Origin: an uncultured archaeon | GTDB taxonomy: Archaea; Iainarchaeota; Iainarchaeia; Iainarchaeales; 0-14-0-20-30-16 | DNA: 32,000 nucleotides | Direction of reading: 5' to 3' | Assembly: GCA_964480435.1 (NCBI GenBank) | Contig: CAYZSS010000002.1 | Location: forward strand, 1 to 32,000 | Shown here: positions 3,920 to 19,910 of the stretch, piece after piece | How positions within the stretch are numbered: the stretch's first letter is position 1 | How the letters are laid out: every line of letters begins with the position of its first letter | Notes under the pieces: model-generated | Seen by the model: the letters and a program-made list of their open reading frames with translations, nothing else | What the model was told of the DNA's origin: nothing | The model's database searches: none | Translations under genes and position numbers: made by a program

Positions 3920-4264
3920 TTAGTTCTTAAATATATTACCCATATTGCTTATTGTGCTATGTGTTCCTTTAGCTATGGCCTTACCTACACCAGTTGGCTT
4001 GTTACCTTTAAGTATATTCTTAGTAACCTTTCCTGCATCCTTAAGCATATTATCTACTATCCCTTCAGGACATTTTATACTATCAAAGTCAACTTCCTTA
4101 AGTTCAACAAATTTCTTAAGGCTAACTGCATTATCCTTTGCCCCTTGTAATAGGTTAAATAAAAGATATACCCCTAAAAGAATTAGACCGATGTTCAGTA
4201 AAGAACCATTGTTCATTAATCCAAATACTAATATTCCTAATAACAAAGCAATTAATAATTTCAT
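3920..4264 (-). CDS. Small membrane protein (2 predicted N-terminal TM helices plus a Lys/Gly-rich soluble tail), function unknown
   Basis: 114-aa ORF on the same strand as the upstream block. The N-terminus MKLLIALLLGILVFGL...IGLILLGVYLLFNLL is strongly hydrophobic. A TATA-like ATTATAT (about nt 4285-4295) lies about 26 nt upstream of the ATG. Confidence 0.55.
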   Translation of the reverse strand: MKLLIALLLGILVFGLMNNGSLLNIGLILLGVYLLFNLLQGAKDNAVSLKKFVELKEVDFDSIKCPEGIVDNMLKDAGKVTKNILKGNKPTGVGKAIAKGTHSTISNMGNIFKN

Positions 4265-4368
4265 ATCAAAACACTACTCGTTTAATATCATATAATATGA
4301 ATAAAGATATCTTTATAAAGGTTCCCTGGTGTTTTCTTCAGGGCACAAGGGAAAATAAAGGTAAATTA

Positions 4369-4689
4369 TTATCCACCCAATCCCTTCAGAAGATCACCAT
4401 ATTGGTCGCCCATTCCACCAACACCATCTTGATCTTCACTAGCGCCATCCTTGTTAAGTATCAAATAAACAACAATAAGAACAGCAGCAACATATATTCC
4501 ATAGCTCTCATAAGCAGACCCAGAAATAAAGTATATTATAACTCCATATAAACCCAGAATAATAAATACTTTTTTTTCCTTAGATATAAAACCAGCAACA
4601 CCAGCAACAATAAGCATCATCCAGTATAGTTTATACTGCGAAGCAATCATCATTACGAAGATAGAAACAATAAAAGAGAAAATTTCCAT
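4369..4689 (-). CDS. Small polytopic membrane protein (about 3 TM) with an acidic Gly/Asp-rich C-terminal tail, function unknown
   Basis: 106-aa ORF, 5 bp downstream of the preceding ORF. It is almost entirely hydrophobic helices and ends in DGASEDQDGVGGMGDQYGDLLKGLGG. Confidence 0.6.
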   Translation of the reverse strand: MEIFSFIVSIFVMMIASQYKLYWMMLIVAGVAGFISKEKKVFIILGLYGVIIYFISGSAYESYGIYVAAVLIVVYLILNKDGASEDQDGVGGMGDQYGDLLKGLGG

Positions 4690-4694
4690 CCTGA

Positions 4695-4961
4695 TCAGCT
4701 CTTAAATATCTCCTTTCCATAGGTCTGATACAAATAAATCGCTAAAACAATCCAAATTAAGGTGTCGTGTTGATAGAAAACTAAAAACATTATTATTAGA
4801 GTATACAATATAGCTACTTCAGGACTTCCTAATTTCCCTTTAGCCCAGGAAAATAAAAAAATGCTTATATAAAGGAACAAGGCAAGCCAAATATCCCCTT
4901 TAAAAGTCCCAATATCCGCAAATAAAAGTATCCAGTTCATAATTCCCACTATATAATGCAC
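4695..4961 (-). CDS. Small polytopic membrane protein (about 3 TM), function unknown
   Basis: 88-aa ORF, hydrophobic throughout, 42 bp downstream of the previous ORF and 5 bp upstream of the next. Confidence 0.55.
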   Translation of the reverse strand: MHYIVGIMNWILLFADIGTFKGDIWLALFLYISIFLFSWAKGKLGSPEVAILYTLIIMFLVFYQHDTLIWIVLAIYLYQTYGKEIFKS

Positions 4962-5003: not shown

Positions 5004-5348
5004 TTATTCTGCATGCCCCTTACTTGCTCTAAACTTCCCTCTAAAGAATGCTGATCCCCAAACCACTGTTGAAGTAAATCCCGCACCCATAAGAAATATC
5101 AGCACATAAAAACTTGCTGCCATTTCAACATACTTCCAAGCAAGGAAATAAACCAATATTGCAGATAGAATCCAGAAAGTAACCCCTTCTATCCCCATAT
5201 TTTTCAGGTAACCCATGATTAAAAAAGCAATTATTACCTGGAATAAAGGTCTTGATATTGAATATACTTGCATAAAAACTATTGGCAAAAGAATTATTAC
5301 TAAAAAACCTATTCCAATTATTCCAAATAATCCACCTTTATTATTCAT
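5004..5348 (-). CDS. Small polytopic membrane protein (about 4 TM), function unknown
   Basis: 114-aa ORF, 4 bp downstream of the preceding ORF, with four hydrophobic stretches and a short basic C-terminus. Confidence 0.6.
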   Translation of the reverse strand: MNNKGGLFGIIGIGFLVIILLPIVFMQVYSISRPLFQVIIAFLIMGYLKNMGIEGVTFWILSAILVYFLAWKYVEMAASFYVLIFLMGAGFTSTVVWGSAFFRGKFRASKGHAE

Positions 5349-5352
5349 ATCT

Positions 5353-5778
5353 TCACCGTCTCATAAATGGATTCATTCCAGGGTTTTTCACTGTCTGAGA
5401 ATTCATTCTTCTCTGGGCCACATCAACCCCACTACTAAGAGGGGTTGTTCCAGGAGCTGTTAAATTCTGCTGCTTACCTTGTTGTTCTGCCTGCTTTTCA
5501 CCAGTTACCTGCTGACCTACAAAGAATAAATCTACCATAGTTCCAGCAACTCCAATTCCTAGCAAAGTATAAATTATAAATACAGGCCCAAATGTAGACC
5601 AACTTGCTATTAATATAAAATACCCCATAAACACAACCATAAGAATTTTTATTAGTTTATTTTGGATATACTTGTTTACAAAGCCAAGAATAGCAACAAA
5701 TGCAAAAATTTTGATGATGAAGGACATATCTGAAAAAAAACCAAATATACCAAATATATCCAATATTACCAAAGCCAT
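5353..5778 (-). CDS. Small polytopic membrane protein (about 4 TM) with a Gln/Pro/Ser-rich disordered C-terminal tail, function unknown
   Basis: 141-aa ORF starting 16 bp after the stop of the 2,227-aa gene. It has four hydrophobic helices followed by GEKQAEQQGKQQNLTAPGTTPLSSG... Confidence 0.65.
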   Translation of the reverse strand: MALVILDIFGIFGFFSDMSFIIKIFAFVAILGFVNKYIQNKLIKILMVVFMGYFILIASWSTFGPVFIIYTLLGIGVAGTMVDLFFVGQQVTGEKQAEQQGKQQNLTAPGTTPLSSGVDVAQRRMNSQTVKNPGMNPFMRR

Positions 5779-5794: not shown

Positions 5795-8700
5795 TTATTT
5801 TATCATATCTAATAACTTTACAGGGTTATAATAATATTCGCTTCCACCCTCTACAGATTTGTAACAAACATTTCCTTTACTTATTTGATTGTATAGACTT
5901 TCTAAATTATCTATGGATAATCCAGTTATTTCTTTTGCTACATTCAGAGCAGATAAGTTTACTGCATTACTATACACAATTCTCTCTATTGTTTTTTCTA
6001 CATTTGTTAAATTAATTATTTTTAATTCCTTTATCTCCCCATTTTCAACAATTTCAAATCTTATTCCATCATTTTCTGCGTAGATATATTCCCCTTCTGT
6101 TTTTTCCACAGTCCAGCCATGCAATAATATTTCACATAATTCAGAGCCATATTCTGGCACATCACTACAATTCAGAGTTATATTTTCATCCTTAGGAATT
6201 GTTTCTGTTAATTTAAATATTTTCATTGGATTATAATATATCAAATTATCATTAAAATAGCCTGAAAATACAGAGCCTATTTCAGTTGTGTTAAGTTCTT
6301 TAAATGAATAATTTTTTACTTCATATTGCTTTAATGCGGATTTATCCTCATCACCTACAAGAGAAAAAACCCCTTCCGACCCAGCAGCATAACTTAACTG
6401 TTTATCTACTGCAGTACCAACACCAGATATTAATCCTGAGCCAGTATTATCAACAGGCATATAATAAAATATATGGTTTGGGCTATAACTTGAAACATAT
6501 GCCAAGTAAACATCTAAGTCATTATCTTTTTGTACTATATTTACATTATAAATTCCAGGATTCAAAACACCAATTGGGTTTCCACTATAATCCAAAATTC
6601 TTATATTATCAAAGTTTGTAAAGAAAGCTGCATTTTCTGTTGCTTTCAAAGCAGATTCAGAATAATTATCATACATTAATTTTACTTGGAATTCTTTTTG
6701 GTCTTGTTTTTCTATTACCTTTGCAAATTGCAATAAATCACAAGCAGTTGTTCCTGCATAATTCTCATCCTTTACAACACAGAACTCTTTATCAACTAAG
6801 TCACCCCAAGTATAATTTATTGTTGGCTTAAATTCAGAACCTGTATTTCCACCATACGGACAAGAGCCTAAATTAGACTCAAAAAAATAATCTTTGCTGC
6901 TGTCGGTAGTATGATATAATTTTATTGTTTCTGCATCAGCCCCATTAAAAGAACCAGATATTTCCAAATTAGTAGTAGAATTAAAATTATAACCCTGTAC
7001 AAAACTTGCAAGACTTAATTCTAACCCTGTTTTTCTGCAAATTAAAAGTTGGGCATAAGTTGTTGCACCTTCATCATTCTTACCAATATCAGTATCAAGA
7101 TCTACTTGCCCACCATAAATAAAGGATTGCACACCATTTTGTTCATCAGTATAAAGGTTATTTCCTGTGCTATCTGTTTGTCCAGATTTATCGCGATGAA
7201 ATTCTAAATCTACTGGTTCAAAACCAGGAGGACAAAAAGTATATGAATAAACTGTTCGCTTGCCCCCACTATCTCCTTCAACCCCCGCAGTTGCAAGATT
7301 AACAAAATACGGGGCAGATATATTTGGTCCCATTTTATTAATTAGACCATAAAAATCAAAAAAATCTGGTTCTTTTGCCTCACCAGCCACAGTTCCATGG
7401 GTCCCACCAAGAGTATCAAAATTATAATTTAATTTAAATTCATTTGAGTTATCTGGCAAACTACCTGACCAAATCCAATACTGACCAGTAGTTGATTCAT
7501 CATCATTACTGGTTTTTCCCCCCTTATGCTGATCTATATTTCCCGCAATTAGAATCCAGTTAGGGTCTTTTATTATTGTTTGGCTATCTGTAAGTTTGGA
7601 TATTTCAGAGTCATCAAAATTACGATAAAAACCCTTTGTTTCGTTTTGACCAATTGCATAATATTCAGCATCAAGATAACCATCAGAGCTAGCAGTAACA
7701 GTATCTAAAATTTGATATCTTTTTGCTGCACCAGATGGATCTGAATTCACTATATTAAAATTAAAATTATTTTCCCAACCAGTAAAATCTGGATAAAGTT
7801 CATTTATAAATACTTTTATATCTCCTGAGTTATTAGTAATAAATGGGTTTACTACAAAATATTTATCACCTTTAGAAGATTGCACAGCAATTTTTACATT
7901 TTTTATATAATTATATTCTTGGGACACATCGTCTTTAACACTTAAAGGAATTACTAAAGCTCCTGAAAAATAAGTAGGCCTCATAATATCAAAATCAATT
8001 GAATTTTCTTCTCCTGGTTTTAAATCCAAATCTCTATTAAATATATCATCCCACGACAAATACATTCCATTAACTTTACAATAATTGGAATCCGGAACTA
8101 GAAACTTATCACACAGCTTTATTTTCAAATCAATACCACAATTATTTATTATTGTTAATGGCAAAGTATCTTTTTTATAAGAAGATTCATATTTTGGCAA
8201 TTCAATATCATCGATACCTACTACATCCAGAGTATTAGCTCTTGGTTTTGTTGTGCCCCCTTCTTTCTCATAACCAAATCTAATAATAGAAGGGTCTGCA
8301 CTTAAATAATTTTCAGGGTCATCACTATCAGCAGATAATCCAAAAGTTAAACACTCAGAAATATCCTTTTCGGAAACAGTAACATTAACATTAGCAGAAG
8401 ATAAATTTGCTAAGCCATTTTCCCCTATATTTTTTTTATAATATGGTGTCAGAGTAAATTTTATTGTTGTATCATTTCCAAAATTATACCCATCAAGTTT
8501 ATTGTATGTAATTTTATAAATATAAGGGCTATTTGATCTTTCTTTTGGAGCAATTAAAGACGCTGATTTTGACCCTTCTATGCCAAACAATTTATATGCT
8601 TCAGTTGAAGAAACATCAGTGTAACCATCAATATTTACAGTAAACCCACCAGGTATATTTCCAGGAGCAGACTGCATTTCTGCATTCAAATCTATTTTTT

Positions 8701-11700
8701 CAAAAGAATAATCTCCTGCTCCATTATAACAATAATTTTCAATTACCAAATAAGATACAGGATCTTTACCATTCAAGAAAACTGCTGAAATATTCTCACT
8801 TAATTCCCCATTAGCCTCATTTGTTAGATATGCATTAAAACAATCTGGCTCTAAAGGACTATTATCAAAATCAATAGTAATATTAAAATTAACTTCCTTA
8901 ACAAGTTCATCAGATGAATTTGGCGCAAATAAATGCAGCATGGCTGAGACCCCATTTATTGGTGTTACTGACGGCAGACCAGATACTGTTGCTTCGTCAT
9001 AAACAACATTAAATTCTAAATTTTTTGCATCGCCTGACAATATTTTTGGATCGTTAAAATAATTTTGCATTTTATTTACGTCATATAATAAAGAAAATAA
9101 ATATTCTAAATCAACAGGCCCATAAAATTCAGCTTGTTTTATTGTAAAATCTAAATTAGTTTTATTTTCTATATTTAGATTTCTAGAAACTGAGCTTGGC
9201 TCTTTAGGAGCAGTAATATACAAGTCAGCAACATCAGTAGTATCAAATAATAAGTTTGTCACATCTAGTGCCACATTAGCAGACAAATAACCTGTTTTTT
9301 CTGCAACAATAGTTACTTTAGTATCTTTTGGTAAAGAACGAATATTTATAGTTATTTTTCCATCAAGATCTGAAACACCAGTATTATATTGTTGGTTTTG
9401 CAAATTAAAACCAACCCCTTCAGAAATATATACTTTTATTGATACCCCTGCAATTTTATCAACACCAGATTTTATAACTACTGGGATAGTATTAGCAATA
9501 TTTGGAGTTAATAAATGATTATCAGTTAAATAATCAATCCCATTTTCTTCATATAGCTCTAAAGGCTCTGCTGCCACTGTTTGTAAATCCACATGTTTTG
9601 TTACTGCTGCAGAATCCTCATCTTCAACAGTAGATTTAAAATAAAAATAAAGTCTTGAGCTATTTGGTTCTAATAAACTTATTTTTGATTTAAATTCTAA
9701 ACTATTATTTATTGCATAATTTGAAATTGGATACTCCTTAAGAAATAAAGGTGTTGATTCAAAAGGCGGATTTATTAACAGCTGCGAAGATGTAATTTTA
9801 TTTAGAGTTAAAAATTTATTAGTTAAATCAATAGAAAACTCTTTTAAGTCATCAAAGTTTCCTGAAAAAATATTTAGATTACTATTGAAAATAGAAAATT
9901 TATTTGTGTTTAATGCAGGCGCTTTTTCTCCTTTCATTAAATTAACTATAATATTATTATCAACACCAGGAGTAAGATTAATTTCGTTTGAGGACCCACC
10001 TAGAAAACTACTTGCAGACAAACCATTAATATAAGTATCGACACACACATCCTCTTTTGAGTTGTTAGAACCTTCACAAGATGCTCTTTTTCCCAAAAAA
10101 TTTATTATTTCGGTTGCATTTTTAAAAAACGGAACATAGCCAGAAGGAACATTTTTTGTGGTACCATCAGCCAAGTTATATTTTAAAGCATAATAAAAAT
10201 ATAATTTTTCTCCTACTTTAGGAATATCTGTTGATCTTAATTTTACTGCTACCCTTGTCACATAAGAGTTTCCATTAAAAGTTTCAGAAAACCATTTTGC
10301 ATTTGTTACGCCGGTATCATCTTGATTAGCAAAAGAAGAGTCAATTTTTGGTTCCGCATATAATTGTTCAAATTGTTCAGTTCCAAAGCCTAATACATCC
10401 CTTAAAATTAAATCACTTTCAAAAACACTCAAATCTTTTCTTCCTGCAGCCCCATAAAGAGTTACAGCTGATATTTTTTTATTTTCAGAACTAAATTCAG
10501 GGACAAAAATATCAAAGACATAATAAAAATCAATTTTATTATCTATAACAGGCAAACCCTCCGTTGTTTGAGAGTCTTTGTACATCCCAACAAACTTAAT
10601 TTCTGGATTTCCGGCCAAATATTTTTCTTTAGAATAAAGAGTAACTTCTTGATCAAAGGCATCTCCTTTTTTTAACATAATTTCCTGACTATAATAATCC
10701 AAATACCCTGCACAAGAAACTTTAAAATAAATATCATGGAATGCCTCTACTGTTAGTTCCTTACTTGTTTCTCCCCCAATAATAGACATGGAACCATAAT
10801 AACTTGAATCCATATACACATTAATATCTACATTAGTAAGAGGCTTTTTATCTTCATCCACTACGGATACTTTTAGTGTTGCTTTACCAACTTCTACAAC
10901 TATTTTTGCATCAACTTCAGGCAATTTTATTGCAGCAGGGTTATCCATAAGAGTTACTATTTCAGGAGTTTTGTAATTATCATACCAAGAATTATATGCC
11001 ACGATTTTATATGAACCTGTTGGAATTGGTGGCAGACTTACAAACCCATTAGAATCTGTTTTTTGCTGAGTGGCAAAGGTATAGTCAAGATCAGCAAATT
11101 CCCCATCATTATGTTCTACCCTTATTTTCATTTCAGGAAGTGGTTTTTCTACACCATCTTTTAATTTTACTACTTTTAAATTAATTTTCGTATTATTAAA
11201 ATAACTTAATTTTTGTAATTCTAGTTCTACTAATTTATCACCAGATTGTTGGTCATATTCTCTTTGTTCTTCAAGCGAACTATAATTCATATCATATTCC
11301 ATATAAGGAGTAACTTGGAAAAAATAATTTCCTTTTGTATAAACACCAACCTTATACTCTTCCCCAGTGTTTACATCACGAGTATCAATAACATTATTAT
11401 TAATATCTCTTACAAATAAAACTGCCTGAGCAAACCCATTATTGTCTTCTGTTTTTACTTTTATTTTAAAGTACCCCAACGGAGGCACAGCCATTGTAAC
11501 ATTAACTACTACTGGATTGCCAGCAGTAACTTCTAAATCCTGACTATAAGTTACTAAAGTGCCTGTAGGATCTGAAACATAAAGTTTGTATTTACCAACA
11601 GTAATTTCATCAAATGTGTAGCTTCCAAATTCAGTTGTTTTTCCTTGATCTACAATATCTGTAACACTCTCAAGATTTGTTATTTTTACATCAAATCCCT

Positions 11701-12478
11701 CTAATGATACTTTTTTATTATCCATTACATAAACAACAACTTTATTCTTTGGAAAATTATCCATTATTGTTGTTGCAGAAGTAGTTCCTTCTTCATCTAA
11801 AATTACTTTACACAACGCTGTATCACAAGTTTGTTTTTTTGTTACATAACCAGGAATAGTTGTTAATAAATCTAAATAAGTGCAGTTTTCAGGAACAGGC
11901 ACTTTTTGGAAACCATCAATAATAGTTAACTCTTTTTCAAAACCATCACAACTTGCTTTCACTGTTGCTTGATCCTTAATCATAGTTCCAGATTTTTCTA
12001 ATAGATAAATAGTAATATCTTTATTTTTATTATTCCCCGCCAAAGCAGCAACATCTAACTGTGGGAGATTCACTTTAATAATATTAGAATTAATTTCATA
12101 AGTTTTTGTAAAACTATATGGTTCTGTAATTTTTACTGTTGCATATTCGCCCTTACTAAGATTTACTTGCAATATCCCATCTGAAACAATCAAATCTTTA
12201 TTAAATCCTTTAGCAGTTATATTCGCAGTAAAATCGCCATTTACTAAACTATTATCAACATAAAATTGAAATGTAATTTGGGATGTTGAAAAACTTGCAA
12301 TTATTAACCAAACAATCAAACCAATTATTACAAGAGAAAGAACTGAAAAGAAAATCATAGATGGCATAACCTTGTCTATTTGGTCAGTAAGTTTATGTAT
12401 TGGGATAGTATTATTTATTTTATCCAGTAAAGCATAATACTTGTCTTCTAAACCATAATAAAATTCTTTTAATCCCAT
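5795..12478 (-). CDS. Giant (2,227 aa) type-II membrane-anchored surface protein with tandem carboxypeptidase-regulatory/PEGA-like beta-sandwich repeats; paralog of the upstream giant gene
   Basis: A 6.7-kb uninterrupted ORF in AT-rich DNA. The N-terminal 45-aa conserved module is followed by one TM helix (MPSMIFFSVLSLVIIGLIVWLIIASF). Repeats have the G.Y......GY signature (VGKYKLYVSDPTG, TGSYKIVAYNSWYD, CAGYLDYYSQ, KTGYLSANVAL). There are many N-x-S/T sequons and conserved Cys pairs. It is collinear with ORF 12575-19894. Confidence 0.9.
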   Translation of the reverse strand: MGLKEFYYGLEDKYYALLDKINNTIPIHKLTDQIDKVMPSMIFFSVLSLVIIGLIVWLIIASFSTSQITFQFYVDNSLVNGDFTANITAKGFNKDLIVSDGILQVNLSKGEYATVKITEPYSFTKTYEINSNIIKVNLPQLDVAALAGNNKNKDITIYLLEKSGTMIKDQATVKASCDGFEKELTIIDGFQKVPVPENCTYLDLLTTIPGYVTKKQTCDTALCKVILDEEGTTSATTIMDNFPKNKVVVYVMDNKKVSLEGFDVKITNLESVTDIVDQGKTTEFGSYTFDEITVGKYKLYVSDPTGTLVTYSQDLEVTAGNPVVVNVTMAVPPLGYFKIKVKTEDNNGFAQAVLFVRDINNNVIDTRDVNTGEEYKVGVYTKGNYFFQVTPYMEYDMNYSSLEEQREYDQQSGDKLVELELQKLSYFNNTKINLKVVKLKDGVEKPLPEMKIRVEHNDGEFADLDYTFATQQKTDSNGFVSLPPIPTGSYKIVAYNSWYDNYKTPEIVTLMDNPAAIKLPEVDAKIVVEVGKATLKVSVVDEDKKPLTNVDINVYMDSSYYGSMSIIGGETSKELTVEAFHDIYFKVSCAGYLDYYSQEIMLKKGDAFDQEVTLYSKEKYLAGNPEIKFVGMYKDSQTTEGLPVIDNKIDFYYVFDIFVPEFSSENKKISAVTLYGAAGRKDLSVFESDLILRDVLGFGTEQFEQLYAEPKIDSSFANQDDTGVTNAKWFSETFNGNSYVTRVAVKLRSTDIPKVGEKLYFYYALKYNLADGTTKNVPSGYVPFFKNATEIINFLGKRASCEGSNNSKEDVCVDTYINGLSASSFLGGSSNEINLTPGVDNNIIVNLMKGEKAPALNTNKFSIFNSNLNIFSGNFDDLKEFSIDLTNKFLTLNKITSSQLLINPPFESTPLFLKEYPISNYAINNSLEFKSKISLLEPNSSRLYFYFKSTVEDEDSAAVTKHVDLQTVAAEPLELYEENGIDYLTDNHLLTPNIANTIPVVIKSGVDKIAGVSIKVYISEGVGFNLQNQQYNTGVSDLDGKITINIRSLPKDTKVTIVAEKTGYLSANVALDVTNLLFDTTDVADLYITAPKEPSSVSRNLNIENKTNLDFTIKQAEFYGPVDLEYLFSLLYDVNKMQNYFNDPKILSGDAKNLEFNVVYDEATVSGLPSVTPINGVSAMLHLFAPNSSDELVKEVNFNITIDFDNSPLEPDCFNAYLTNEANGELSENISAVFLNGKDPVSYLVIENYCYNGAGDYSFEKIDLNAEMQSAPGNIPGGFTVNIDGYTDVSSTEAYKLFGIEGSKSASLIAPKERSNSPYIYKITYNKLDGYNFGNDTTIKFTLTPYYKKNIGENGLANLSSANVNVTVSEKDISECLTFGLSADSDDPENYLSADPSIIRFGYEKEGGTTKPRANTLDVVGIDDIELPKYESSYKKDTLPLTIINNCGIDLKIKLCDKFLVPDSNYCKVNGMYLSWDDIFNRDLDLKPGEENSIDFDIMRPTYFSGALVIPLSVKDDVSQEYNYIKNVKIAVQSSKGDKYFVVNPFITNNSGDIKVFINELYPDFTGWENNFNFNIVNSDPSGAAKRYQILDTVTASSDGYLDAEYYAIGQNETKGFYRNFDDSEISKLTDSQTIIKDPNWILIAGNIDQHKGGKTSNDDESTTGQYWIWSGSLPDNSNEFKLNYNFDTLGGTHGTVAGEAKEPDFFDFYGLINKMGPNISAPYFVNLATAGVEGDSGGKRTVYSYTFCPPGFEPVDLEFHRDKSGQTDSTGNNLYTDEQNGVQSFIYGGQVDLDTDIGKNDEGATTYAQLLICRKTGLELSLASFVQGYNFNSTTNLEISGSFNGADAETIKLYHTTDSSKDYFFESNLGSCPYGGNTGSEFKPTINYTWGDLVDKEFCVVKDENYAGTTACDLLQFAKVIEKQDQKEFQVKLMYDNYSESALKATENAAFFTNFDNIRILDYSGNPIGVLNPGIYNVNIVQKDNDLDVYLAYVSSYSPNHIFYYMPVDNTGSGLISGVGTAVDKQLSYAAGSEGVFSLVGDEDKSALKQYEVKNYSFKELNTTEIGSVFSGYFNDNLIYYNPMKIFKLTETIPKDENITLNCSDVPEYGSELCEILLHGWTVEKTEGEYIYAENDGIRFEIVENGEIKELKIINLTNVEKTIERIVYSNAVNLSALNVAKEITGLSIDNLESLYNQISKGNVCYKSVEGGSEYYYNPVKLLDMIK

Positions 12479-12574
12479 AAAATCACTTCTTATATTTTTT
12501 GGACCTGTTTTGATTTCCCTTTTTCGGAAATCACAAACTCGCCCATAATAACACCCTAATTTCTTATTTCTATC

Positions 12575-15500
12575 TTATTCTGCTTCTTCTGCCTCTTCTT
12601 TGTATTCATTCCAAAATACATTCATCCATTGGCTTGTTGAATTAATACACAATTTTTCACCAGAGATATCAGTAAACACATCTTGTAAAGTTTTTCCTGT
12701 GCCTTGTTTTGATGTTGGATTACCATTAGACAACATATTTATTGGTGATTTATATGATACAGTCCCAGCATTTTCTTTTGTGTATATGTATGCGTACAGT
12801 TCTATATCTTTGGTATCAGAAGTTACTGATTCTTGATTGTATTTTATTCCAGATTGATTTCCACAAACATTTGGTTCAGAACTTTTTGGATAATTATCTG
12901 CCAATTTTTGGCCTGTGAAATCCAATAAGTTAGCGTCCTTTGCAAAGAAAGGTAATACTGAATCAGGGCTATCATAAGTTTGAGAATCAACTAAAACAGA
13001 GTAACAAAACTTAGTATCTCCTGTAGGATTTACTTTCACAGTTGAATCAATTTTTGTTTGCATTAAAGGAACAAAGTTAACTGATACAAAACCATCTGCA
13101 ATTTTATCAATACTTAAAACACTTCCTCTGTCTATTTTATTTGCTTTTACAAAGCTATAATCATTACTTGTGTCCAAAGTATTTATTGGATTAGATGTAG
13201 AGTCTGTTGTTGCTTTTTTCAGATAGTCACCCATTTTAAACAAGTCAATTGTGTTTCCTGAAAAATCAACACCATAACCTTGTCTATCAACTACATAGTT
13301 TGTTATTCCCACAGGGCCATCCAAAGGCATATAATATAGAATATTATCTTGCACAGGAGTTTCTGCTTTTTCCAATAAAATGTATATATCTTTTATTTCT
13401 AAATCCATATTATCATAGGTAATTATTGTTCTAACAAGATACTTTCCAGGCCCACTCAAAGTTTTTGTGCCATCTACATTTAAAATTTTTAGTTTTCCTG
13501 ATTTCAACAATGGTAAATAAGTTGAAATTATATGATCTGGGCACTCGAAAAAGTCATCATTACAGGCATCAACAAAATCATTAATAAAATCTTCTCCAAA
13601 TCCATCTTTCATTAAATCTGCTTGGAAATAAATTTTATCTTTTGCAGCATTTAATTTATCATTAGTTTCTTTTGGAATTTGTCCATTCACATCTAAGAAA
13701 TAATTTGAAATTTGCATCATACCATTATTTATTTCTGTAGATAATGGAATATTCATCGCAGTTTGTGGTAATGGAGGATAATACTTAAACTTTACTTTTA
13801 CTAATAAAGTTTTTGTTTTTGCAGCATTCACATTTACCACATTCAAAATAAACTCTTTTTCAATATTATTTAAATCACTATATTTTTTAACATCAGTTAT
13901 CAAAGTAAACAGATAGATATTTGGATTTGTTTCTGATAAGTTTACCAGATCTTGTATATCAATTCCAGTACCCGAAACAGAAATTTTGCTAATATTGGAA
14001 TCCTGTGTTTTTGTTACTATAAAATACACTTCTTTGGTATCAGGATTCTGTTGCACACGCATATTAGTTACCCCTATTTGTTCTGCTACTGCATCAAGAT
14101 AATTAATATCCACATCTACACCTTCAGGAATAGGTGGAAGCATAGGCACAGACAACGCCCCAAGAGTTTTTATATCTTTATTAAATGTATCAATTCTGTT
14201 AAACATATTCATCAATAATTGTGTAGAATCGCAGTAATTATCTTCTCCACAAAAGGCCAATTTTTTATATGGGCCTGCGCCATCTTTCCAACTCCAATTA
14301 TATTCGATTTTTGGAGCTGCATTTTCCCCAGTAAAACCTAAAACATCTCCCTTAGAGTTTGTACAAGGGGCACCTAATGGAATACTTTTTTGCTCTTCTT
14401 GTAGAGGATTATATAGAGCTACCCTATAATTATATTTTGTTCCTTCTGTATCAAGAGAATTTTCCATATTAAAACTAATATCAAAGTAATTATTTCCAGG
14501 CAATAATGACTCTGTTGGTTTTGTGAAAATTACCCTTGCTAATCCAGTTCCAGGAAGCCCATAAGGGATACCTTTGAATTGTTCTGAAAGCCAAGTTTTA
14601 TTATCCATTTTACATAAAACATAAACATTGGACTTTAACTCAAAACCATCCAAAAATCCAGCGCCACTACAATCAGGTTTAAATTCAACTGAGTTTCCTG
14701 TTATTTCATATGGTTTTTCTGGCCAACCACATATCTGTTTTTTAGTATCATGTATAATTATCCCTGGTTCGTATACTTCGTATCCTGGTCCACAACTAAC
14801 TTTAAACCATAAATCCTTTTTGTGGTCACCATCAGTAAAACCTACAGACCCGGCAACTTGTTTATTTACATGATATAATCTAAAATATGCCTCACCAGTT
14901 AAATCCATAGATTTGATTATGTCCTCAGACAACACTTTTTCTACCCCAAGAGTATCAGTTAATTTACCTGTGTCCAAGTCTATTCTATATGGTGGTATTG
15001 TTACATCCCCATTATTATAAATAAAATATTCAGTGCTTTGTTCAAAATCAGATATTGCCGCAACTATAACCATAGTTGCTGCTGCTGCTGCAGCAATACC
15101 ACAGATAATCCATCCCGCAACAGGAATTGGAGCAGTTGCTGCCGCAGTAATTAACAAAGCCCCTGTTGCTGACATATAAGTTGTTGCAGCAATAGTAGGC
15201 AAAGTAAGAGCAATTGCTGCAAAGGTAATAGCACCAGCTGTTGTAGTTGCCGCACTAGCAATAAAAACAGCTGCTCTTGCATCCGCATCGTTATCTACTT
15301 TATCTCCAGAATAAGTGCCTAAATTACTACTAAAATTCAACCTATCTAGAGAATCCCAACAGCCAGACTCCTCCCCCTCACAAGTGTTAATCTTGCTTAA
15401 CACTTCTAAATCCATTAAACTGTAAAGTCGCACATCAGTGTTAAATAAATACATTACATCAGAATTACCATCTGTATTTACTTGTAAAAAAGGGCTATAA

Positions 15501-18500
15501 CTAAACAACCCATAACCAGATGTTGTTTGAACATTTGTTTTCAAATCATAAATCTTTTTGAAACCAAATTGGTCTGGAGTTCTTAACCAAATATCCAAAG
15601 CATATGCACCTGGAATTGAAGGTCTATATATTTCTATTTCTTTACTTTCTCCACCAACTATTTTTACACCATCAGTTAACTTATCATCTGAAAATCTAAG
15701 CCTTGCTTCTGTGTTTTCATTTCCACAGCCAGCACTAAAATTTGGAGGATATTCATTATCTTTACAAACTCTTACAAATAAAGTTGAACCAACACACTCA
15801 TTCTTTATTTCTATTTCTTTTGATGGTCCATTAATTTTTTGCCCTATATTTTCAAAAGAGGATAAATAAGCTGTGCTATCAAATACTTCAAAATCAAGCT
15901 TTTCTATTTTTTCTCCTTCTGTGTCATAAACCCCAATACAATCTGCCAAATTCATTGCAGAAACATTTATTTCTATTTTATTGGATTCTATTTTTGCAGG
16001 GCCTGATTCAGTATTAACATAACCAATCAATTTTATTCCAATTTTTTGTGTTCCTTTTGTTGTTCTAGGAGTAATACCTAAACCGGCAATAATTGGATTA
16101 AAATCAGCCTTCCAATTTTCAAAAACCAAAGTTGGGAAGCCTATATCAAGAGTTGCAGACATTTTATCAGGAATACTTATTGTATATCCGGCAACACCAT
16201 AACTACCATCTTCTAAAGACAATTGCACAAATGCTTTATCTAAAGTAGCAAGTTTGACATTTGCCACATCAAGCAGACAGGAATTTACAATTTCCACTTG
16301 GGCACTAATTTCTTTTTCCAAATAGAAATCTGTTTGATTGTCAACCATAGAAATACTTAAACATTCACTTGCATTTTCCGGATAAGAATCTAATCTAAAT
16401 GTTATTGTAAATGGTATCTCCAAAACAATATCACCAGGGCTAGTAGATAAATGTAATTTTATTTTACCACTAATCTTATCAACAGGGATTGTGTTAGTTG
16501 AACTTTCTTTTGCAATTACTTTAAAGAAATATTGCAAATTTGTTTCATTTGGTTCCATTCCTTCTTCCATACCATAAATTACTTTTCCATTAAATTCTGA
16601 ATTAAAATAAGATTCCATTGCTTCCCAATTCAGCAAATATTTAGAATCTTGGGAATATTTATCAAAAATAATTTCAGCATTTTCCAAAATTAAATCTTGC
16701 GCGCTTGCATTAGTTATTTCTAAGTCCGCAGTTTTCACTTTTTCTTTTGGATATGCCAAATCAATTTCTAATTTTTCAGGATTAAAAGTAACAATTTCAG
16801 CTAATACTTTCAGGTCCGGAGTTAAATCCTTATGCTTATAACTTTTATAACCAGGTTTATATGCCAAAATTTGGATAAAAGTTCCTTTTTCTAAAGGAGG
16901 AAGTTTGCATAAAATCTTTCCTTCATAATCAGTTACCATATTAACACAGGAATCAGATTGCACAGCATAATAACCATCATCAGACTGCCCTTTTTTGAAA
17001 ATGCTAACTACTGCATCTTTTATTATGGACCCAGTTTCATCATAAACATAAACTTTTAGGTCTTGTGCTTTAGTTGGAACTAAAACAGTGTTTGGGAAAA
17101 ACTTAATTGCTAAAGAATGTGCAGCATCAGGAATAAAAGAATAATTAAATGCAGGTTCCCCTCTTACAGGCACTTGTTTATCTGTATCAATTATCCAAAA
17201 ATTCAAATAATTTGCTTTATCAGTTGTGGGAATAAAATCAAAATTTCCATTTATTGTTTTATTAGCAAAGAAATTTGTAAATTCATACTTGTCAACTAAC
17301 ATTGATTTTGCTGAAGACCAGTTTTGAGATTGAGTATTTGGACCGGATAAAGTTATGTTTGTAAAATTAAAATAATTATAATTATCAAGATCATTTTCAA
17401 CAACTAAAAAACTTTGGCCTGGGGCATTTGCAGTGTGTGCTTTCAGATATCCATTTTTTATTTCTCCATCTGTTGCAGTAATACCATTCATCAAAGTAAA
17501 TTCCGTTTTGTATCCTTTTCCAATAACTAAAGAATATTTTTGTTCATTCTTATTTACATTTCCAAGATTCTCTAGATACAATTGACTTTCTAAATCAAGC
17601 ACAGATGTTTTTGCACAAAACATATCAGTACAATCTAGTGAACTGCCTAAAAAGTATTGCTTTTCTTCATGTGATTCTGACACAGAACTATTATCTAAAA
17701 ATAATTCCCAGCTTACATTTAAAGAAGAATATAATGATACAGAGGAGTCATTTCTTACTTTTATTTTTATATAAATTCTGTAAGTTCCTTTTTCAACATC
17801 ACTACCCTCAACCCCTTTATTCCATTTTGCAGTTAAAACTTTTCCTTCATCTTCAGTAGGATTGTTTTTTTCAAAATCCTCATACATTGAATCTATCTGG
17901 GAAGATGCATAATCCCCAATTATAAACAACGGATCTTGCTCTACATCTGTGGAATTAGTGCCTGTGATATATTGGAATTCCATTTCACTTACATCTTGAT
18001 ACAAATGAATATCATATCCCAAATAAACTTCTTTTCCAATTTCAAAGGATGTTTTTTCGCCACCCATAGAATCAAAAATACCTAAAAATGTTACTCTTGC
18101 TTTTTCTTCATCATCTTTAAATTTTTGTGGTTCTAAATTTACATTTCCGTCCCAAATAATTTGTGGGGTTAATACTCTTGATTCACTAAAGAATGGTAAA
18201 TAACCCTCACTTTTAACTTCAAAAAACTTTTTTGTCCCTGCTTTCAAAGAAAAAGTCATTTTTCCTTTGTTATCCGAAAGTTTTGAACCCAATTTTTCTA
18301 TATTTGTGCTTTTATTAAAAAAAGAAAATTCTGCAAAAGGAATAGGATAGCCTAAGTCATCTAAAACAGAAATATCAAAACTTCCATTTCCTAAATATAA
18401 AAATACTTTTACTTCTTCTTGTGGTATTTCAGTATTACTTGTTTCAGTTACTTGGACTTGATCACTCATTCCTTCAGAGTATCCTTTATAAGCCCTAAAA

Positions 18501-19885
18501 AGATATGCCCCATCTTGAGAGATTGTTACATGTGTATAACCATTAGTATCTGTTTCTGGGATAACATAGCTAAATATTTCAAACCCAGTAAATAAATCTT
18601 GAACAAATACATTTGCTCCTTCAATTGGTTTTTCATCTTCATCAAGCAATCTTATGTTAAATTTTTTAGAATTAAAAGAAGTTATTTCTTTTACGTCAAC
18701 AACAATTTCTTGTTGACCTGCAACAATGTTTATTTCTTTATTTGCAATAACACCATAGTTTCCATCTTTAGGGTTTATATCCACTAAATATTTACCGTAG
18801 GCATATATTGGCAGAATTGCAGCATTATTTTGGCTATCTCCAGAAAATAAAATTTCATTAGTCAAAGTTTTTAAAACAACAGAAAAATTAATATCTTCAT
18901 CTAATTTTAAAACAAAGTTCCCTAAAGTATTTTTTTCTACAATTATTTTTGATGATACTCCTGGTTCAGTTAAAGTAATTGTTTGGTTAGTAGTCAAATA
19001 GCCAGTAACAGTAACATAAACTTTGTAAATTCCTACAGGAAGAGCCTTTGATTTGTAAGACCCACTCACTGAGTAATCAATTTCAACAGGAGTGATTAAA
19101 TCTTTTACATTATATACAGTTACTGTTCCATCCTTTGACGCATCTACAGAATCAACAATGGTTAATGAAATAAAAGCAGTAGGAATTTCGCTTGTGCCTC
19201 CCAAATTAGCTTGAGTTAAGCTACTAAATGTAACAATACAAGAGGTAGAATCACAACTTTTTTGTGCTTGAGAATACCCTTCCGCACTAGCAACAATATT
19301 CAAAGTGCCACAATCATCAGGAACCTCTACTTCAACATATGCATTAGTAGTTGTTTTTGATTTTTCAGAGTCTGGCAAAGTTACATTTTCACATTCAAAA
19401 TATGCGCTTGCAGAATTTACATTATCGTATCCTGACTTAAAAAATACCTCAACAGGTATTATTTTTTTCTTAGCAGTTAGAATAACTTTGATTTCATCTG
19501 CAAAAGAAAAGGTATCATCTATGCCATACTTAGCAGTATCCACTTTTATCCTATATGAATCACTTTTAGGCACAGCCCCTGAGAAAGTTCCATCTTTTGC
19601 TTCAAAAGAGTAATTATTATCTCCAACAAATAACGAAAATTGCAAATTATCTGCAATTTTTATTGGACCATTAAAGAATGAAATTGTTACATTTGTGTAT
19701 GATGGAATTAAAGCCCAAACAACTAAACCGATAATTATCAAAAAAAGAATAAAGAAAAATATCATTGACGGCATAATTTTATCTATTTTGTCTACAATTG
19801 CATGTGCAGGAAAAATAGTGTCTAAACTATCAATCATTTTGTAGTATTTATCTTCCAAACCAAAATAGAAATCCTTAAAGCCCAT
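12575..19885 (-). CDS. Giant (about 2,436 aa) type-II membrane-anchored surface protein with beta-sandwich repeats and an internal Ala/Thr-rich hydrophobic insertion; paralog of the downstream giant gene
   Basis: A 7.3-kb uninterrupted ORF. The ORF-track start at 19894 is GTG. The ATG at 19885 gives MGFKDFYFGLEDKYY, which aligns with the paralog's MGLKEFYYGLEDKYY, so I prefer it. One TM helix follows the N-terminal module. CarboxypepD_reg-like repeats are present (e.g. LLDEDEKPIEGANVFVQD...TDTNGYTHVTISQDGAYLFRAYKGY). The tail is acidic (EYKEEAEEAE). Confidence 0.9.
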   Translation of the reverse strand: MGFKDFYFGLEDKYYKMIDSLDTIFPAHAIVDKIDKIMPSMIFFFILFLIIIGLVVWALIPSYTNVTISFFNGPIKIADNLQFSLFVGDNNYSFEAKDGTFSGAVPKSDSYRIKVDTAKYGIDDTFSFADEIKVILTAKKKIIPVEVFFKSGYDNVNSASAYFECENVTLPDSEKSKTTTNAYVEVEVPDDCGTLNIVASAEGYSQAQKSCDSTSCIVTFSSLTQANLGGTSEIPTAFISLTIVDSVDASKDGTVTVYNVKDLITPVEIDYSVSGSYKSKALPVGIYKVYVTVTGYLTTNQTITLTEPGVSSKIIVEKNTLGNFVLKLDEDINFSVVLKTLTNEILFSGDSQNNAAILPIYAYGKYLVDINPKDGNYGVIANKEINIVAGQQEIVVDVKEITSFNSKKFNIRLLDEDEKPIEGANVFVQDLFTGFEIFSYVIPETDTNGYTHVTISQDGAYLFRAYKGYSEGMSDQVQVTETSNTEIPQEEVKVFLYLGNGSFDISVLDDLGYPIPFAEFSFFNKSTNIEKLGSKLSDNKGKMTFSLKAGTKKFFEVKSEGYLPFFSESRVLTPQIIWDGNVNLEPQKFKDDEEKARVTFLGIFDSMGGEKTSFEIGKEVYLGYDIHLYQDVSEMEFQYITGTNSTDVEQDPLFIIGDYASSQIDSMYEDFEKNNPTEDEGKVLTAKWNKGVEGSDVEKGTYRIYIKIKVRNDSSVSLYSSLNVSWELFLDNSSVSESHEEKQYFLGSSLDCTDMFCAKTSVLDLESQLYLENLGNVNKNEQKYSLVIGKGYKTEFTLMNGITATDGEIKNGYLKAHTANAPGQSFLVVENDLDNYNYFNFTNITLSGPNTQSQNWSSAKSMLVDKYEFTNFFANKTINGNFDFIPTTDKANYLNFWIIDTDKQVPVRGEPAFNYSFIPDAAHSLAIKFFPNTVLVPTKAQDLKVYVYDETGSIIKDAVVSIFKKGQSDDGYYAVQSDSCVNMVTDYEGKILCKLPPLEKGTFIQILAYKPGYKSYKHKDLTPDLKVLAEIVTFNPEKLEIDLAYPKEKVKTADLEITNASAQDLILENAEIIFDKYSQDSKYLLNWEAMESYFNSEFNGKVIYGMEEGMEPNETNLQYFFKVIAKESSTNTIPVDKISGKIKLHLSTSPGDIVLEIPFTITFRLDSYPENASECLSISMVDNQTDFYLEKEISAQVEIVNSCLLDVANVKLATLDKAFVQLSLEDGSYGVAGYTISIPDKMSATLDIGFPTLVFENWKADFNPIIAGLGITPRTTKGTQKIGIKLIGYVNTESGPAKIESNKIEINVSAMNLADCIGVYDTEGEKIEKLDFEVFDSTAYLSSFENIGQKINGPSKEIEIKNECVGSTLFVRVCKDNEYPPNFSAGCGNENTEARLRFSDDKLTDGVKIVGGESKEIEIYRPSIPGAYALDIWLRTPDQFGFKKIYDLKTNVQTTSGYGLFSYSPFLQVNTDGNSDVMYLFNTDVRLYSLMDLEVLSKINTCEGEESGCWDSLDRLNFSSNLGTYSGDKVDNDADARAAVFIASAATTTAGAITFAAIALTLPTIAATTYMSATGALLITAAATAPIPVAGWIICGIAAAAAATMVIVAAISDFEQSTEYFIYNNGDVTIPPYRIDLDTGKLTDTLGVEKVLSEDIIKSMDLTGEAYFRLYHVNKQVAGSVGFTDGDHKKDLWFKVSCGPGYEVYEPGIIIHDTKKQICGWPEKPYEITGNSVEFKPDCSGAGFLDGFELKSNVYVLCKMDNKTWLSEQFKGIPYGLPGTGLARVIFTKPTESLLPGNNYFDISFNMENSLDTEGTKYNYRVALYNPLQEEQKSIPLGAPCTNSKGDVLGFTGENAAPKIEYNWSWKDGAGPYKKLAFCGEDNYCDSTQLLMNMFNRIDTFNKDIKTLGALSVPMLPPIPEGVDVDINYLDAVAEQIGVTNMRVQQNPDTKEVYFIVTKTQDSNISKISVSGTGIDIQDLVNLSETNPNIYLFTLITDVKKYSDLNNIEKEFILNVVNVNAAKTKTLLVKVKFKYYPPLPQTAMNIPLSTEINNGMMQISNYFLDVNGQIPKETNDKLNAAKDKIYFQADLMKDGFGEDFINDFVDACNDDFFECPDHIISTYLPLLKSGKLKILNVDGTKTLSGPGKYLVRTIITYDNMDLEIKDIYILLEKAETPVQDNILYYMPLDGPVGITNYVVDRQGYGVDFSGNTIDLFKMGDYLKKATTDSTSNPINTLDTSNDYSFVKANKIDRGSVLSIDKIADGFVSVNFVPLMQTKIDSTVKVNPTGDTKFCYSVLVDSQTYDSPDSVLPFFAKDANLLDFTGQKLADNYPKSSEPNVCGNQSGIKYNQESVTSDTKDIELYAYIYTKENAGTVSYKSPINMLSNGNPTSKQGTGKTLQDVFTDISGEKLCINSTSQWMNVFWNEYKEEAEEAE

Positions 19886-19910
19886 AAAAATCACGGTACA
19901 AGATTAAAAC

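What the first reader, a model, noticed from the sequence alone, without database searches (positions are those of the whole stretch)
3920..19894. Two tandem giant paralogous surface proteins followed by a tight array of tiny polytopic membrane proteins: candidate undescribed cell-surface or cell-cell interaction apparatus
Seen in the sequence:
- ORFs of about 2,436 aa (12575-19885) and 2,227 aa (5795-12478) lie on the same strand, 96 bp apart. Together they take up 44% of the window.
- They are collinear paralogs along their whole length. The N-termini are nearly identical (MGFKDFYFGLEDKYY...IDKIMPSMIFF vs MGLKEFYYGLEDKYY...IDKVMPSMIFF, each followed by one TM helix). Shared islands include VPDDCGTL...EGYSQAQKSCDSTSC vs VPENCTYL...PGYVTKKQTCDTALC, YFLGSSLDCTDMFC vs NFLGKRASCEGSNNSKEDVC, ILYYMPLD vs IFYYMPVD, and FTDISGEKLC vs YNQISKGNVC near the C-termini.
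- The first third of each consists of repeated beta-sandwich units with a carboxypeptidase-regulatory/PEGA-like signature. I recognise no motif in the remaining roughly 1,500 aa.
- Directly downstream, with gaps of only 16, 4, 42 and 5 bp, are four ORFs of 141, 114, 88 and 106 aa made almost entirely of TM helices. Two of them carry Gln- or Asp/Gly-rich soluble tails. A fifth ORF (114 aa, 2 TM) follows after 104 bp.
- The block contains no ATPase, pilin, secretin, archaeosortase or glycosyltransferase gene.

Inference: the spacing suggests co-transcription. The small proteins may form a dedicated membrane platform, anchor or insertion complex for the giant ectodomain proteins. In a small-genome archaeon, spending 14 kb on these genes suggests host or partner attachment.
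Basis: partly seen in the sequence, partly recalled or inferred. Interest (0 to 1): 0.8.

Follow-up and report, generated by a model that had tools for sequence, protein, structure and literature searches.

The report
Conserved giant-protein and small-membrane-protein cluster
Two tandem 2,200-2,400-residue membrane-anchored surface proteins and the five tiny membrane proteins after them form a gene cluster kept in the same order across Iainarchaeota (Diapherotrites, DPANN) archaea; it is probably one uncharacterised cell-surface complex, and only the giant proteins have been mentioned before, in one sentence of one paper.

Summary
Giant A (12575-19885, 2,436 aa) and giant B (5795-12478, 2,227 aa) are paralogs on the minus strand. 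Five small 2-4-TM proteins follow them.

The window comes from an Iainarchaeota/Diapherotrites archaeon. The same order, giants then s141, s114a, s88, s106 and a fifth 2-TM protein, recurs in about 25 further loci, some with giants only 20-25% identical. In 20 of 21 metagenome loci with enough flank a giant lies upstream of the s141 homolog. In 16 of 17 the small genes follow in the same order.

The small proteins are under purifying selection and are better conserved than the giants. The giants share three features:
- a conserved 40-aa cytoplasmic N-terminal motif plus one TM helix;
- a run of CarboxypepD_reg-type beta-sandwiches;
- in giant A, a 630-aa C-terminal module found in 692 database clusters and matching no solved structure.

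No secretion, pilus, sortase or defence family matches.

Best reading: the giants are N-anchored surface glycoproteins that work with the five small proteins as a membrane base. Whether this serves cell-cell contact or a structural coat is untested. Probst and Banfield (2018) noted the giants in Ca. Forterrea. The small-protein array, N-motif and C-module appear undescribed.

The parts
12575..19885 (-). Giant A (2,436 aa): type-II (N-in, C-out) membrane protein
   Evidence: ORF. Identical protein P0001 is in public collections. It has a 55-57% identical ortholog in Ca. Iainarchaeum MAG GCA_028710695.1.
19766..19885 (-). Giant A cytoplasmic N-terminal motif (aa 1-40): MGFKDFYFGLEDKYY..IDKIMPS
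   Evidence: Best conserved stretch among the giants compared in A1/A2. Y7, E11, Y15, D19, P26 and P39 are invariant in 11 divergent giants. It is present in 81 of 112 full-length family members, and the rest carry a shortened form.
19706..19765 (-). Giant A signal-anchor TM helix (aa 41-60)
   Evidence: Hydropathy. An N-terminal TM helix occurs in 108 of 112 family giants.
18098..19216 (-). Giant A array of CarboxypepD_reg-like beta-sandwich units (aa 224-331, 395-497, 491-596); a fourth unit lies at aa 932-1053 (16727-17092)
   Evidence: Pfam PF13620, E 1.2e-12. Iterated domain profile. The family profile matches NOMO2 (9c7v_B, E 3e-6) and SlaB (8qox_B, E 5e-4).
15041..15268 (-). Giant A internal Ala/Gly-rich hydrophobic segment (aa 1540-1615), probably a membrane hairpin with a P-x-P-V-A-G-W turn
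   Evidence: Hydropathy. Comparable segments lie at 45-85% of the length in 49 of 112 family giants, and at the start of the C-terminal half where the gene is split.
12587..14488 (-). Giant A conserved C-terminal module (aa 1800-2433) with motifs NW.W, YCD.TQF, LMKDGF..DF.NDF, YYMP.DG.VG and RQGYG.DF
   Evidence: Alignments A3, A4 and A10. 692 clusters at E<=1e-3, always at the C-terminus of giants. AF2 model pLDDT 70.9. No PDB or BFVD match.
5795..12478 (-). Giant B (2,227 aa): paralog of A with the same N-motif (12359-12478), TM helix (12287-12358) and beta-sandwich array; divergent C-terminal half
   Evidence: Its ortholog in L001 is 45% identical. No C-module profile hit.
5353..5778 (-). 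s141: 3-TM protein with a Gln-rich, basic C-terminal tail; first gene of the small array
   Evidence: 58% identical to the L001 ortholog, dN 0.35. Homologs sit directly after the last giant in about 40 loci.
5004..5348 (-). s114a: 4-TM protein, distant paralog of s141
   Evidence: hhalign of A6 vs A7 gives probability 94%, E 1.4e-7. Always second in the array.
4695..4961 (-). s88: 2-3-TM protein; true start probably the ATG at 4940 (81 aa)
   Evidence: 78% identical to the L001 ortholog. Start inferred. Third in the array.
4369..4689 (-). s106: 3-4-TM protein with an acidic Gly-rich tail ending Q.GDLL.GLGG
   Evidence: Alignment A9. 74% identical to the ortholog. Fourth in the array.
3920..4264 (-). 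s114b: 2-TM protein with a Lys-rich tail holding a PEG...MLKD.GK motif; fifth gene, after a 104-bp gap that may hold its own promoter
   Evidence: 73% identical to the L001 ortholog. A 2-4-TM protein of 114-156 aa holds this position in the other loci and shares the motif.
19911..19920 (-). TATA-like box TTTATATATA, 31 bp upstream of the giant A start codon (candidate promoter)
   Evidence: Read directly from the sequence. This is an inference only.

Best explanation
The block encodes a multi-subunit cell-surface complex specific to Iainarchaeota.

- Each giant is inserted as a type-II membrane protein. The conserved 40-aa N-terminal motif stays in the cytoplasm, one TM helix anchors the protein, and the remaining 2,200-2,400 residues lie outside the cell.
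- The external part is a glycosylated, disulfide-containing chain of beta-sandwich domains.
- In giant A the chain returns to the membrane through a Gly/Ala-rich hydrophobic hairpin and ends in a conserved 630-aa head module of unknown fold.
- The five small polytopic proteins are obligate partners. They most likely form a membrane base that binds the giants' N-motif and TM segment through their TM helices and their tails (predicted cytoplasmic). This base would hold, organise or assemble the paralogous giants.
- The outward-facing complex most likely mediates contact with other cells or surfaces.

Shown: the gene content, paralogy, domain hits, conserved order, purifying selection and phylum-wide distribution. 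Inferred: the topology, the physical interaction, co-transcription and the biological role.
For: - Conserved order from giants to the fifth small gene in the window, L001, L002, L009, L015, L084, L085 and about 20 metagenome loci, at giant identities down to 20-25%.
- 20 of 21 s141 homologs with enough flank have a giant upstream (19 scored automatically; L068 added by inspection because its giant overlaps s141 by 16 bp). 16 of 17 are followed by s114a, s88 and s106 in order.
- Junctions are short, with medians of 3-53 bp.
- The small proteins are 58-78% identical to their L001 orthologs, with dN 0.15-0.35 and saturated dS. The giants are 45-57% identical.
- The cytoplasmic N-motif is the most conserved stretch of the giants compared in A1/A2, which implies a conserved partner on the cytoplasmic or membrane side. 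The only genes recurrent across the loci with predicted cytoplasmic tails are the small proteins.
- Extracellular location is supported by N-x-S/T sequons at 12-14 per 1,000 aa against 0-4.5 in the window's cytoplasmic proteins, by 21-29 cysteines per giant with several Cys columns invariant in the 18-giant alignment, and by the Ig-like and CarboxypepD_reg domains.
- The family is large and confined, where named, to Diapherotrites/Iainarchaeota.
- A different 1,039-aa protein has been modelled as the Iainarchaeota S-layer lattice. This leaves the giants as an additional surface structure.
Against: - There is no expression, localisation or interaction data.
- Topology rests on hydropathy and the positive-inside rule only.
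- The small proteins match no known family, so a 'platform' role has no precedent to lean on.
- The fifth gene has a 104-bp gap with promoter-like and hairpin sequences and may be transcribed separately.
- Some N-motif giants in other genomes are not followed by the array (L014, L020, L022, L024), so not every giant needs an adjacent copy.
- The strong conservation and core-genome position fit a structural coat as well as a contact organ.
Confidence: 0.55

Rival explanations
1. The giants form the cell's main protein coat, a 'colossal' S-layer-like canopy, and the small proteins act as its membrane anchors. The role is structural rather than contact with partners.
For: - Giant Ig-rich membrane-anchored S-layer proteins now have a precedent: the 292-kDa, 19-Ig-domain PySLP of Pyrobaculum (bioRxiv 10.64898/2026.08.21.746120).
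- The family profile matches the Ig region of the S-layer stalk protein SlaB (8qox_B, E 5e-4).
- The cluster is phylum-wide, sits in the core genome and keeps a fixed architecture.
- Cysteines are conserved and sequons are enriched.
- The mid-protein hairpin returning to the membrane suggests an arch rather than a free fibre.
Against: - A separate 1,039-aa Diapherotrites protein gives a confident p6 lattice model.
- The defining PySLP features are absent: no cleavable signal peptide, no C-terminal TM helix and no basic tail.
- Two to five divergent paralogs per genome would be unusual for a lattice protein.
Confidence: 0.2
2. The small proteins are not stable partners. They form a dedicated export, insertion or maturation device for the giants, comparable in logic to the accessory Sec system or to extended signal peptides of giant bacterial adhesins. 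The N-motif would be its recognition signal.
For: - The N-terminal extension ahead of the hydrophobic helix is conserved.
- The coupling of giants and small genes is strict.
- No other conserved accessory genes are present.
- The analogy to extended signal peptides of very large secreted proteins rests on general knowledge.
Against: - There is no ATPase, SecY/SecA-like, YidC-like or Tat-like protein among them.
- Proteins of 81-141 aa with 2-4 TM helices have no precedent as translocons.
Confidence: 0.15
3. The hydrophobic hairpin and C-module insert into or bind the membrane of a partner cell, so the complex forms an intercellular bridge for taking up lipids or metabolites.
For: - Gly/Ala-rich glycine-zipper-like hairpins occur in many family members.
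- Ca. Forterrea lacks lipid and nucleotide synthesis and was inferred to depend on a host.
Against: - Only 49 of 112 giants have a hairpin that passes the hydropathy threshold, and gB has none.
- In split genes the hairpin follows a signal peptide, which fits an anchor in the cell's own membrane.
- No lipid-transfer or pore-forming fold was detected.
Confidence: 0.07
4. The small ORFs are unrelated housekeeping membrane proteins, or spurious ORFs, that merely lie next to the giants.
For: None beyond the absence of any functional annotation.
Against: The order is conserved across about 25 divergent loci, the ORFs are under purifying selection, and four of the five are independently called in public collections.
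Confidence: 0.03

Closest known systems
Large membrane-anchored proteins of Ca. Forterrea multitransposorum (Probst and Banfield 2018, PMC5905446)
   Same: They belong to the same protein family. Locus L030 on CP045477.1 carries N-motif giants, and its 964-aa gene matches the C-terminal part of the giants. The paper reports five proteins over 1,800 aa in one 42-kb region and proposes cell-cell interaction.
   Different: The paper gives one sentence and one figure legend. It does not describe the N-motif, the C-module, the small-protein array or the phylum-wide conservation. In Forterrea-type genomes at least one of the giants is split into a 1,867-aa N-part and a 964-aa C-part.
PySLP-type colossal S-layer proteins of Thermoproteota, and the SlaA/SlaB system
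   Same: Size of 2,400-2,700 aa, long arrays of Ig-like domains, a membrane anchor and conserved cysteines. The family profile weakly matches the SlaB Ig region.
   Different: PySLP has a cleaved signal peptide, a C-terminal TM helix and a basic tail. The giants here have an N-terminal signal-anchor with a cytoplasmic motif and no C-terminal TM helix. They occur as 2-5 tandem paralogs, giant A and most family members end in a non-Ig head module, and they come with five small TM proteins.
NOMO, the rod of transthyretin/CarboxypepD_reg-like domains in the eukaryotic BOS complex (NOMO-NCLN-TMEM147)
   Same: It is the best solved-structure match to the family profile (9c7v_B, E 3e-6), with faint Pfam NOMO hits. 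The overall logic is similar: a long beta-sandwich rod on one side of a membrane, working with a small polytopic partner.
   Different: The similarity is limited to about 200 aa of repeated domains. NOMO is C-terminally anchored. No NCLN or TMEM147 homologs are present.
Giant bacterial surface adhesins with special N-terminal signals (extended signal peptide regions, YSIRK or KxYKxGKxW signals, accessory Sec substrates)
   Same: Very large Ig-rich surface proteins with a conserved N-terminal extension ahead of the hydrophobic helix, and accessory genes next door. The comparison rests on general knowledge. Weak SpaA, SdrD_B and Big_1 domain hits were found.
   Different: There is no sequence relation of the motif, no LPXTG sorting signal, T1SS signal, SecA2/Y2 or sortase. 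The organism is an archaeon with a single membrane.

Membership tests
PySLP-like colossal S-layer proteins | Cleavable N-terminal signal peptide | tested here: not met
   A 40-aa conserved hydrophilic motif precedes the only N-terminal hydrophobic helix.
PySLP-like colossal S-layer proteins | C-terminal TM helix followed by a basic tail ending in Lys | tested here: not met
   Neither giant has a hydrophobic segment at the C-terminus. gA ends ...EYKEEAEEAE. gB ends in Lys but has no TM helix.
PySLP-like colossal S-layer proteins | Tandem Ig-like domains forming stalk and lattice | tested here: inconclusive
   Beta-sandwich units are detected in the first third and at aa 932-1053, and there is a weak SlaB match. 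Lattice formation cannot be tested here.
CarboxypepD_reg (PF13620) domain-containing proteins | Pfam PF13620 match above the gathering score | tested here: met
   48.4 and 49.3 bits against a cut-off of 32.3. 17 of 18 family giants match. This is membership at the level of a domain only.
Alpha-2-macroglobulin / thioester proteins | Thioester C-x-E-Q motif and a TED domain | tested here: not met
   bMG3 and MG4 domain hits occur in relatives. There is no C.EQ motif and no TED family hit in gA or gB.
Sortase- or T1SS-dependent bacterial adhesins | C-terminal LPXTG sorting signal or RTX/T1SS signal, with cognate genes nearby | tested here: not met
   The only LPGTG is internal, at aa 1777, with no TM helix or charged tail after it. 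No sortase, ABC or MFP genes are present.
Type IV pilus / archaellum-like systems | Class III signal peptide on subunits, plus an assembly ATPase and a platform protein | tested here: not met
   The N-terminal extension is 40 aa long and conserved. No ATPase, PilC/FlaJ or prepilin peptidase family is found in the block.
Anti-phage defence or phage-derived modules | A match to PADLOC or PHROGs families | tested here: not met
   No hits for any of the seven proteins. GC content is uniform and the neighbours are housekeeping genes.

The most novel reading that the evidence does not exclude
The five small proteins and the cytoplasmic N-motif would form a previously unknown machine that assembles and anchors colossal type-II surface proteins. 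The giants' Gly/Ala-rich hairpin and unclassified C-terminal head would engage a partner cell's envelope, providing the physical link through which these reduced-genome archaea obtain lipids and metabolites.
Probability: 0.1. Interest if true: 0.9.

Novelty: new variant of a known kind. Interest (0 to 1): 0.62.

Why it matters
DPANN archaea are widespread but almost uncultured, and how their cells are built and how they touch other cells remain open questions.

This cluster takes up 2-5% of very small genomes and is conserved across a whole phylum. Its parts match nothing characterised: a cytoplasmic N-terminal motif, a 630-aa head module without a solved-structure match, and five orphan membrane-protein families.

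The work gives concrete targets for cryo-ET, metaproteomics and complex prediction. It also turns a one-line remark about 'large extracellular proteins' into a defined multi-gene system with testable parts.

Tried and rejected
- **Concatenated small-protein query.** All five small proteins joined into one homologous-protein query found nothing, not even themselves. Four of them are in the collection, so this was a technical failure and not evidence of absence.
- **N-motif profile search.** It returned only 58-115-aa fragments.
- **Structure prediction.** A 4-sequence alignment gave an unusable model with pLDDT 45, and its Foldseek hits were noise.
- **Other profile searches.** NCBIfam, PADLOC, PHROGs and PDB sequence or profile searches gave nothing for the small proteins or the C-module.
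- **Thioester adhesin.** Rejected. YCDSTQ is not a C-x-E-Q motif, and the neighbouring conserved cysteines suggest disulfides.
- **AsmA/TamB-like lipid bridge.** Rejected for lack of any domain support.
- **Pilin or class III signal.** Rejected because of the motif's length and the absence of assembly genes.
- **Mobile element or prophage.** Rejected because composition is uniform and the neighbours are housekeeping genes.
- **Downstream genes as part of the system.** The conserved downstream genes in other loci are PolB, an M24 peptidase and a protein of about 500 aa. They reflect genome synteny, not membership of the system.

Full report
**Observation**

The window is AT-rich (about 31% GC) and composition is even. 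It carries archaeal housekeeping genes: a thermosome, an Mre11-like phosphoesterase, RpiA, and tRNA-Ser and tRNA-Gly.

On the minus strand lie giant A (12575-19885, 2,436 aa), giant B (5795-12478, 2,227 aa) and five small ORFs of 141, 114, 88, 106 and 114 aa.

Hydropathy gives each giant one N-terminal TM helix after a 40-aa hydrophilic segment. Each small protein has 2-4 TM segments. Giant A also has an extra Ala/Gly-rich hydrophobic stretch at aa 1540-1615.

BLASTP confirms paralogy, but it is strong only for the first 640 aa or so (26% identity, E 2e-43). Two weaker collinear blocks follow. Giant B lacks the internal hydrophobic stretch and the C-terminal module of A.

The 88-aa ORF more likely starts at the ATG at 4940, giving 81 aa.

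**Origin**

Giant A is identical to a protein in public collections. It has a 55-57% identical ortholog in a 'Candidatus ainarchaeum sp.' MAG.

A scan of species-representative genomes with the N-terminal motif gave 36 loci. Wherever a taxon is named, it is Iainarchaeota/Diapherotrites, and the set includes the complete genome of Ca. Forterrea multitransposorum.

**Synteny**

- In the closest genome (L001) the layout is giant, giant, then proteins of 139, 119, 81, 112 and 114 aa, each homologous to its window counterpart.
- In L002, L009 and L015, where the giants are only 20-25% identical, homologs of s141 and s114a (and in L009 also s88 and s106) follow the last giant.
- A metagenome scan with the s141 subfamily gave 40 more loci.
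- Of 21 loci with at least 1.5 kb upstream, 20 have a family giant directly upstream. One of these is counted by inspection because of a 16-bp overlap. Of 17 with enough downstream sequence, 16 show s114a, s88 and s106 in that order, and a fifth 2-4-TM protein usually follows.
- Two further long contigs show the full common form. L084 reads: a protein of about 594 aa, giant 2,578, 165-aa polytopic protein, giant 3,253, giant 2,487, then 111, 111, 74, 107 and 117 aa. L085 reads: three giants, then 157, 106, 95, 106 and 150 aa.
- Junctions are short across loci, with medians of 3-53 bp.
- Genes further downstream in those loci are housekeeping (PolB, an M24 peptidase). The cluster therefore sits in the core genome and not in an island.

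**Selection**

Against the L001 orthologs the small proteins are 58, 66, 78, 74 and 73% identical, with dN 0.15-0.35 and saturated dS. The giants are 57% and 45% identical. The small genes are thus real and are better conserved than the giants.

s141 and s114a are distant paralogs (hhalign probability 94%). No relation was detected for s88 or s106.

**Anatomy of the giants**

- *N-terminal motif.* FY.x.E[DE]K[YW]Y..LD...IP.Y..VD.IDK[VI].PS[FM] followed by a TM helix is the best conserved part of the giants compared. Of 112 full-length family members, 108 have the N-terminal TM helix and 81 have the full motif. The rest carry a shortened version.
- *Beta-sandwich array.* Pfam finds only beta-sandwich families: CarboxypepD_reg in 17 of 18 members, plus bMG3, Big_1, SpaA, SdrD_B and MG4. 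A domain profile finds four units in giant A.
- *Solved-structure matches.* The family profile's best matches are NOMO2 of the BOS complex (E 3e-6) and SlaB, the Sulfolobus S-layer stalk protein (E 5e-4).
- *Hydrophobic hairpin.* About 60-65% of the way along, many members have a Gly/Ala-rich hydrophobic hairpin (49 of 112 at the threshold used). Where the gene is split, this segment lies near the start of the second half, after its own signal peptide.
- *C-terminal module.* The last 630 aa or so of giant A form a conserved module with invariant Asp, Tyr, Arg and Gly residues and conserved Cys positions.
- *Family size.* An exhaustive profile search found the module in 692 clusters at 50% identity (413 at E<=1e-30). 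Among the 150 best listed, nearly all hits are at the extreme C-terminus of 2,100-3,250-aa proteins or in split forms of about 950-1,000 aa. All named members are Diapherotrites 'hypothetical' or 'carboxypeptidase regulatory-like' proteins.
- *Fold.* With a 35-sequence alignment AlphaFold2 gave a usable model (pLDDT 70.9, pTM 0.67). Foldseek found no PDB or viral-structure match below E 1e-3, and profile searches of PDB sequences found none.
- *Extracellular signature.* Sequons are three to four times denser than in the window's cytoplasmic proteins, and several cysteine positions are invariant across the family. Both fit an extracellular glycoprotein.

**How it probably works**

The giants are signal-anchored. 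The motif stays inside and everything else is outside.

The conserved cytoplasmic motif needs a conserved partner. Across loci, the only recurrent genes in the cluster with predicted cytoplasmic parts are the small proteins. These parts are the basic Gln-rich tail of s141, the acidic Gly-rich tail of s106 and the Lys-rich tail of the fifth protein.

I therefore favour a stable membrane base made of the five small proteins that holds and organises two or more paralogous giants (confidence 0.55). Three steps in this chain are inferred and not shown: the topology, the physical contact and co-transcription.

A TATA-like box lies 31 bp upstream of giant A. Both giants have GTGAT just before the ATG. 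The 104-bp gap before the fifth gene contains a hairpin and TATA-like sequences.

**Role: contact organ or coat**

Probst and Banfield (PMC5905446) noted five membrane-anchored proteins over 1,800 aa in a 42-kb region of Ca. Forterrea and proposed cell-cell interaction. L030 shows these belong to this family.

Colossal Ig-rich S-layer proteins are now documented in Thermoproteota, and the core-genome conservation here would suit a structural coat. Against that rival, the defining anchoring features of those proteins are absent. A different 1,039-aa Diapherotrites protein has also been modelled as a p6 S-layer lattice.

Whether Iainarchaeota are free-living or host-dependent is itself disputed. 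I rate the S-layer reading at 0.2, a dedicated export or maturation device at 0.15, and a partner-membrane-inserting bridge at 0.07.

**Novelty**

The giants were mentioned once in the literature. I found no description of the small-protein array, the N-motif, the C-module or the phylum-wide conservation.

Giant Ig-rich archaeal surface proteins are a known kind. This is a new variant of that kind, with N-terminal anchoring, tandem paralogs, a head module that matches no solved structure, and five dedicated orphan membrane proteins.

Noticed in passing
window 29820-32000 (+), runs off the window end: An ORF of at least 727 aa with an N-terminal segment of about 40 aa, one TM helix and an ectodomain ending in a poly-gamma-glutamate hydrolase domain (PF05908, E 2.7e-23). 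This is a second membrane-anchored extracellular protein, possibly acting on polymers of other cells. No homolog was found in the fetched loci.
   Followed up: partly
window 492-1943 (+): A 483-aa protein with a lipoprotein-like N-terminus and 31 cysteines (6.4%). It has only weak cystine-knot-type hits (Dickkopf_N, Squash) and no homolog in any fetched locus.
   Followed up: partly
window 21156-22145 (+): A 329-aa protein with a GGDEF diguanylate-cyclase domain (PF00990, E 1.1e-9). To my knowledge such proteins are uncommon in archaea. It is followed by a 251-aa ORF with no family match.
   Followed up: no
window 19984-20460 (-); L007 193-1227: A GNAT acetyltransferase lies directly upstream of giant A on the same strand. 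The giant A ortholog in L007 is also preceded by two GNAT paralogs, 38-40% identical. A link to the giants, for example N-terminal acetylation, is pure speculation.
   Followed up: partly
L002 131-1567 and 8794-9288; L084 1-1407 and 9410-9907; L030 1192-2871: Two further recurrent components are absent from the window. One is a single-TM protein of about 475-600 aa upstream of the first giant (12 loci). The other is a 4-5-TM protein of about 150-165 aa between the first and second giants.
   Followed up: partly
L004 10001-17732; L030 10001-18536 (also L027, L028, L032): In some genomes a giant is split into an N-part (1,537-1,867 aa, with the N-motif) and a C-part (about 960-1,005 aa). The C-part has its own signal peptide, the Gly-rich hydrophobic hairpin and the C-module.
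   Followed up: partly
L009 giant at 10001-17101 (aa 1502-1533); family members P0092 and P0097: The turn of the internal hydrophobic hairpin often carries a W-C-P-x-C or C-G-P-G-C motif. This is a CxxC pair that would face the cytoplasm if both flanks are outside. Its meaning is unknown.
   Followed up: no
window 4326-4355 (-): An inverted repeat TTCCCTTGTG...CACCAGGGAA lies between s106 and the fifth small gene, after a T-rich run. Oligo-T runs follow the stop of the fifth gene at about 3880-3919. These may be terminator and promoter elements.
   Followed up: no
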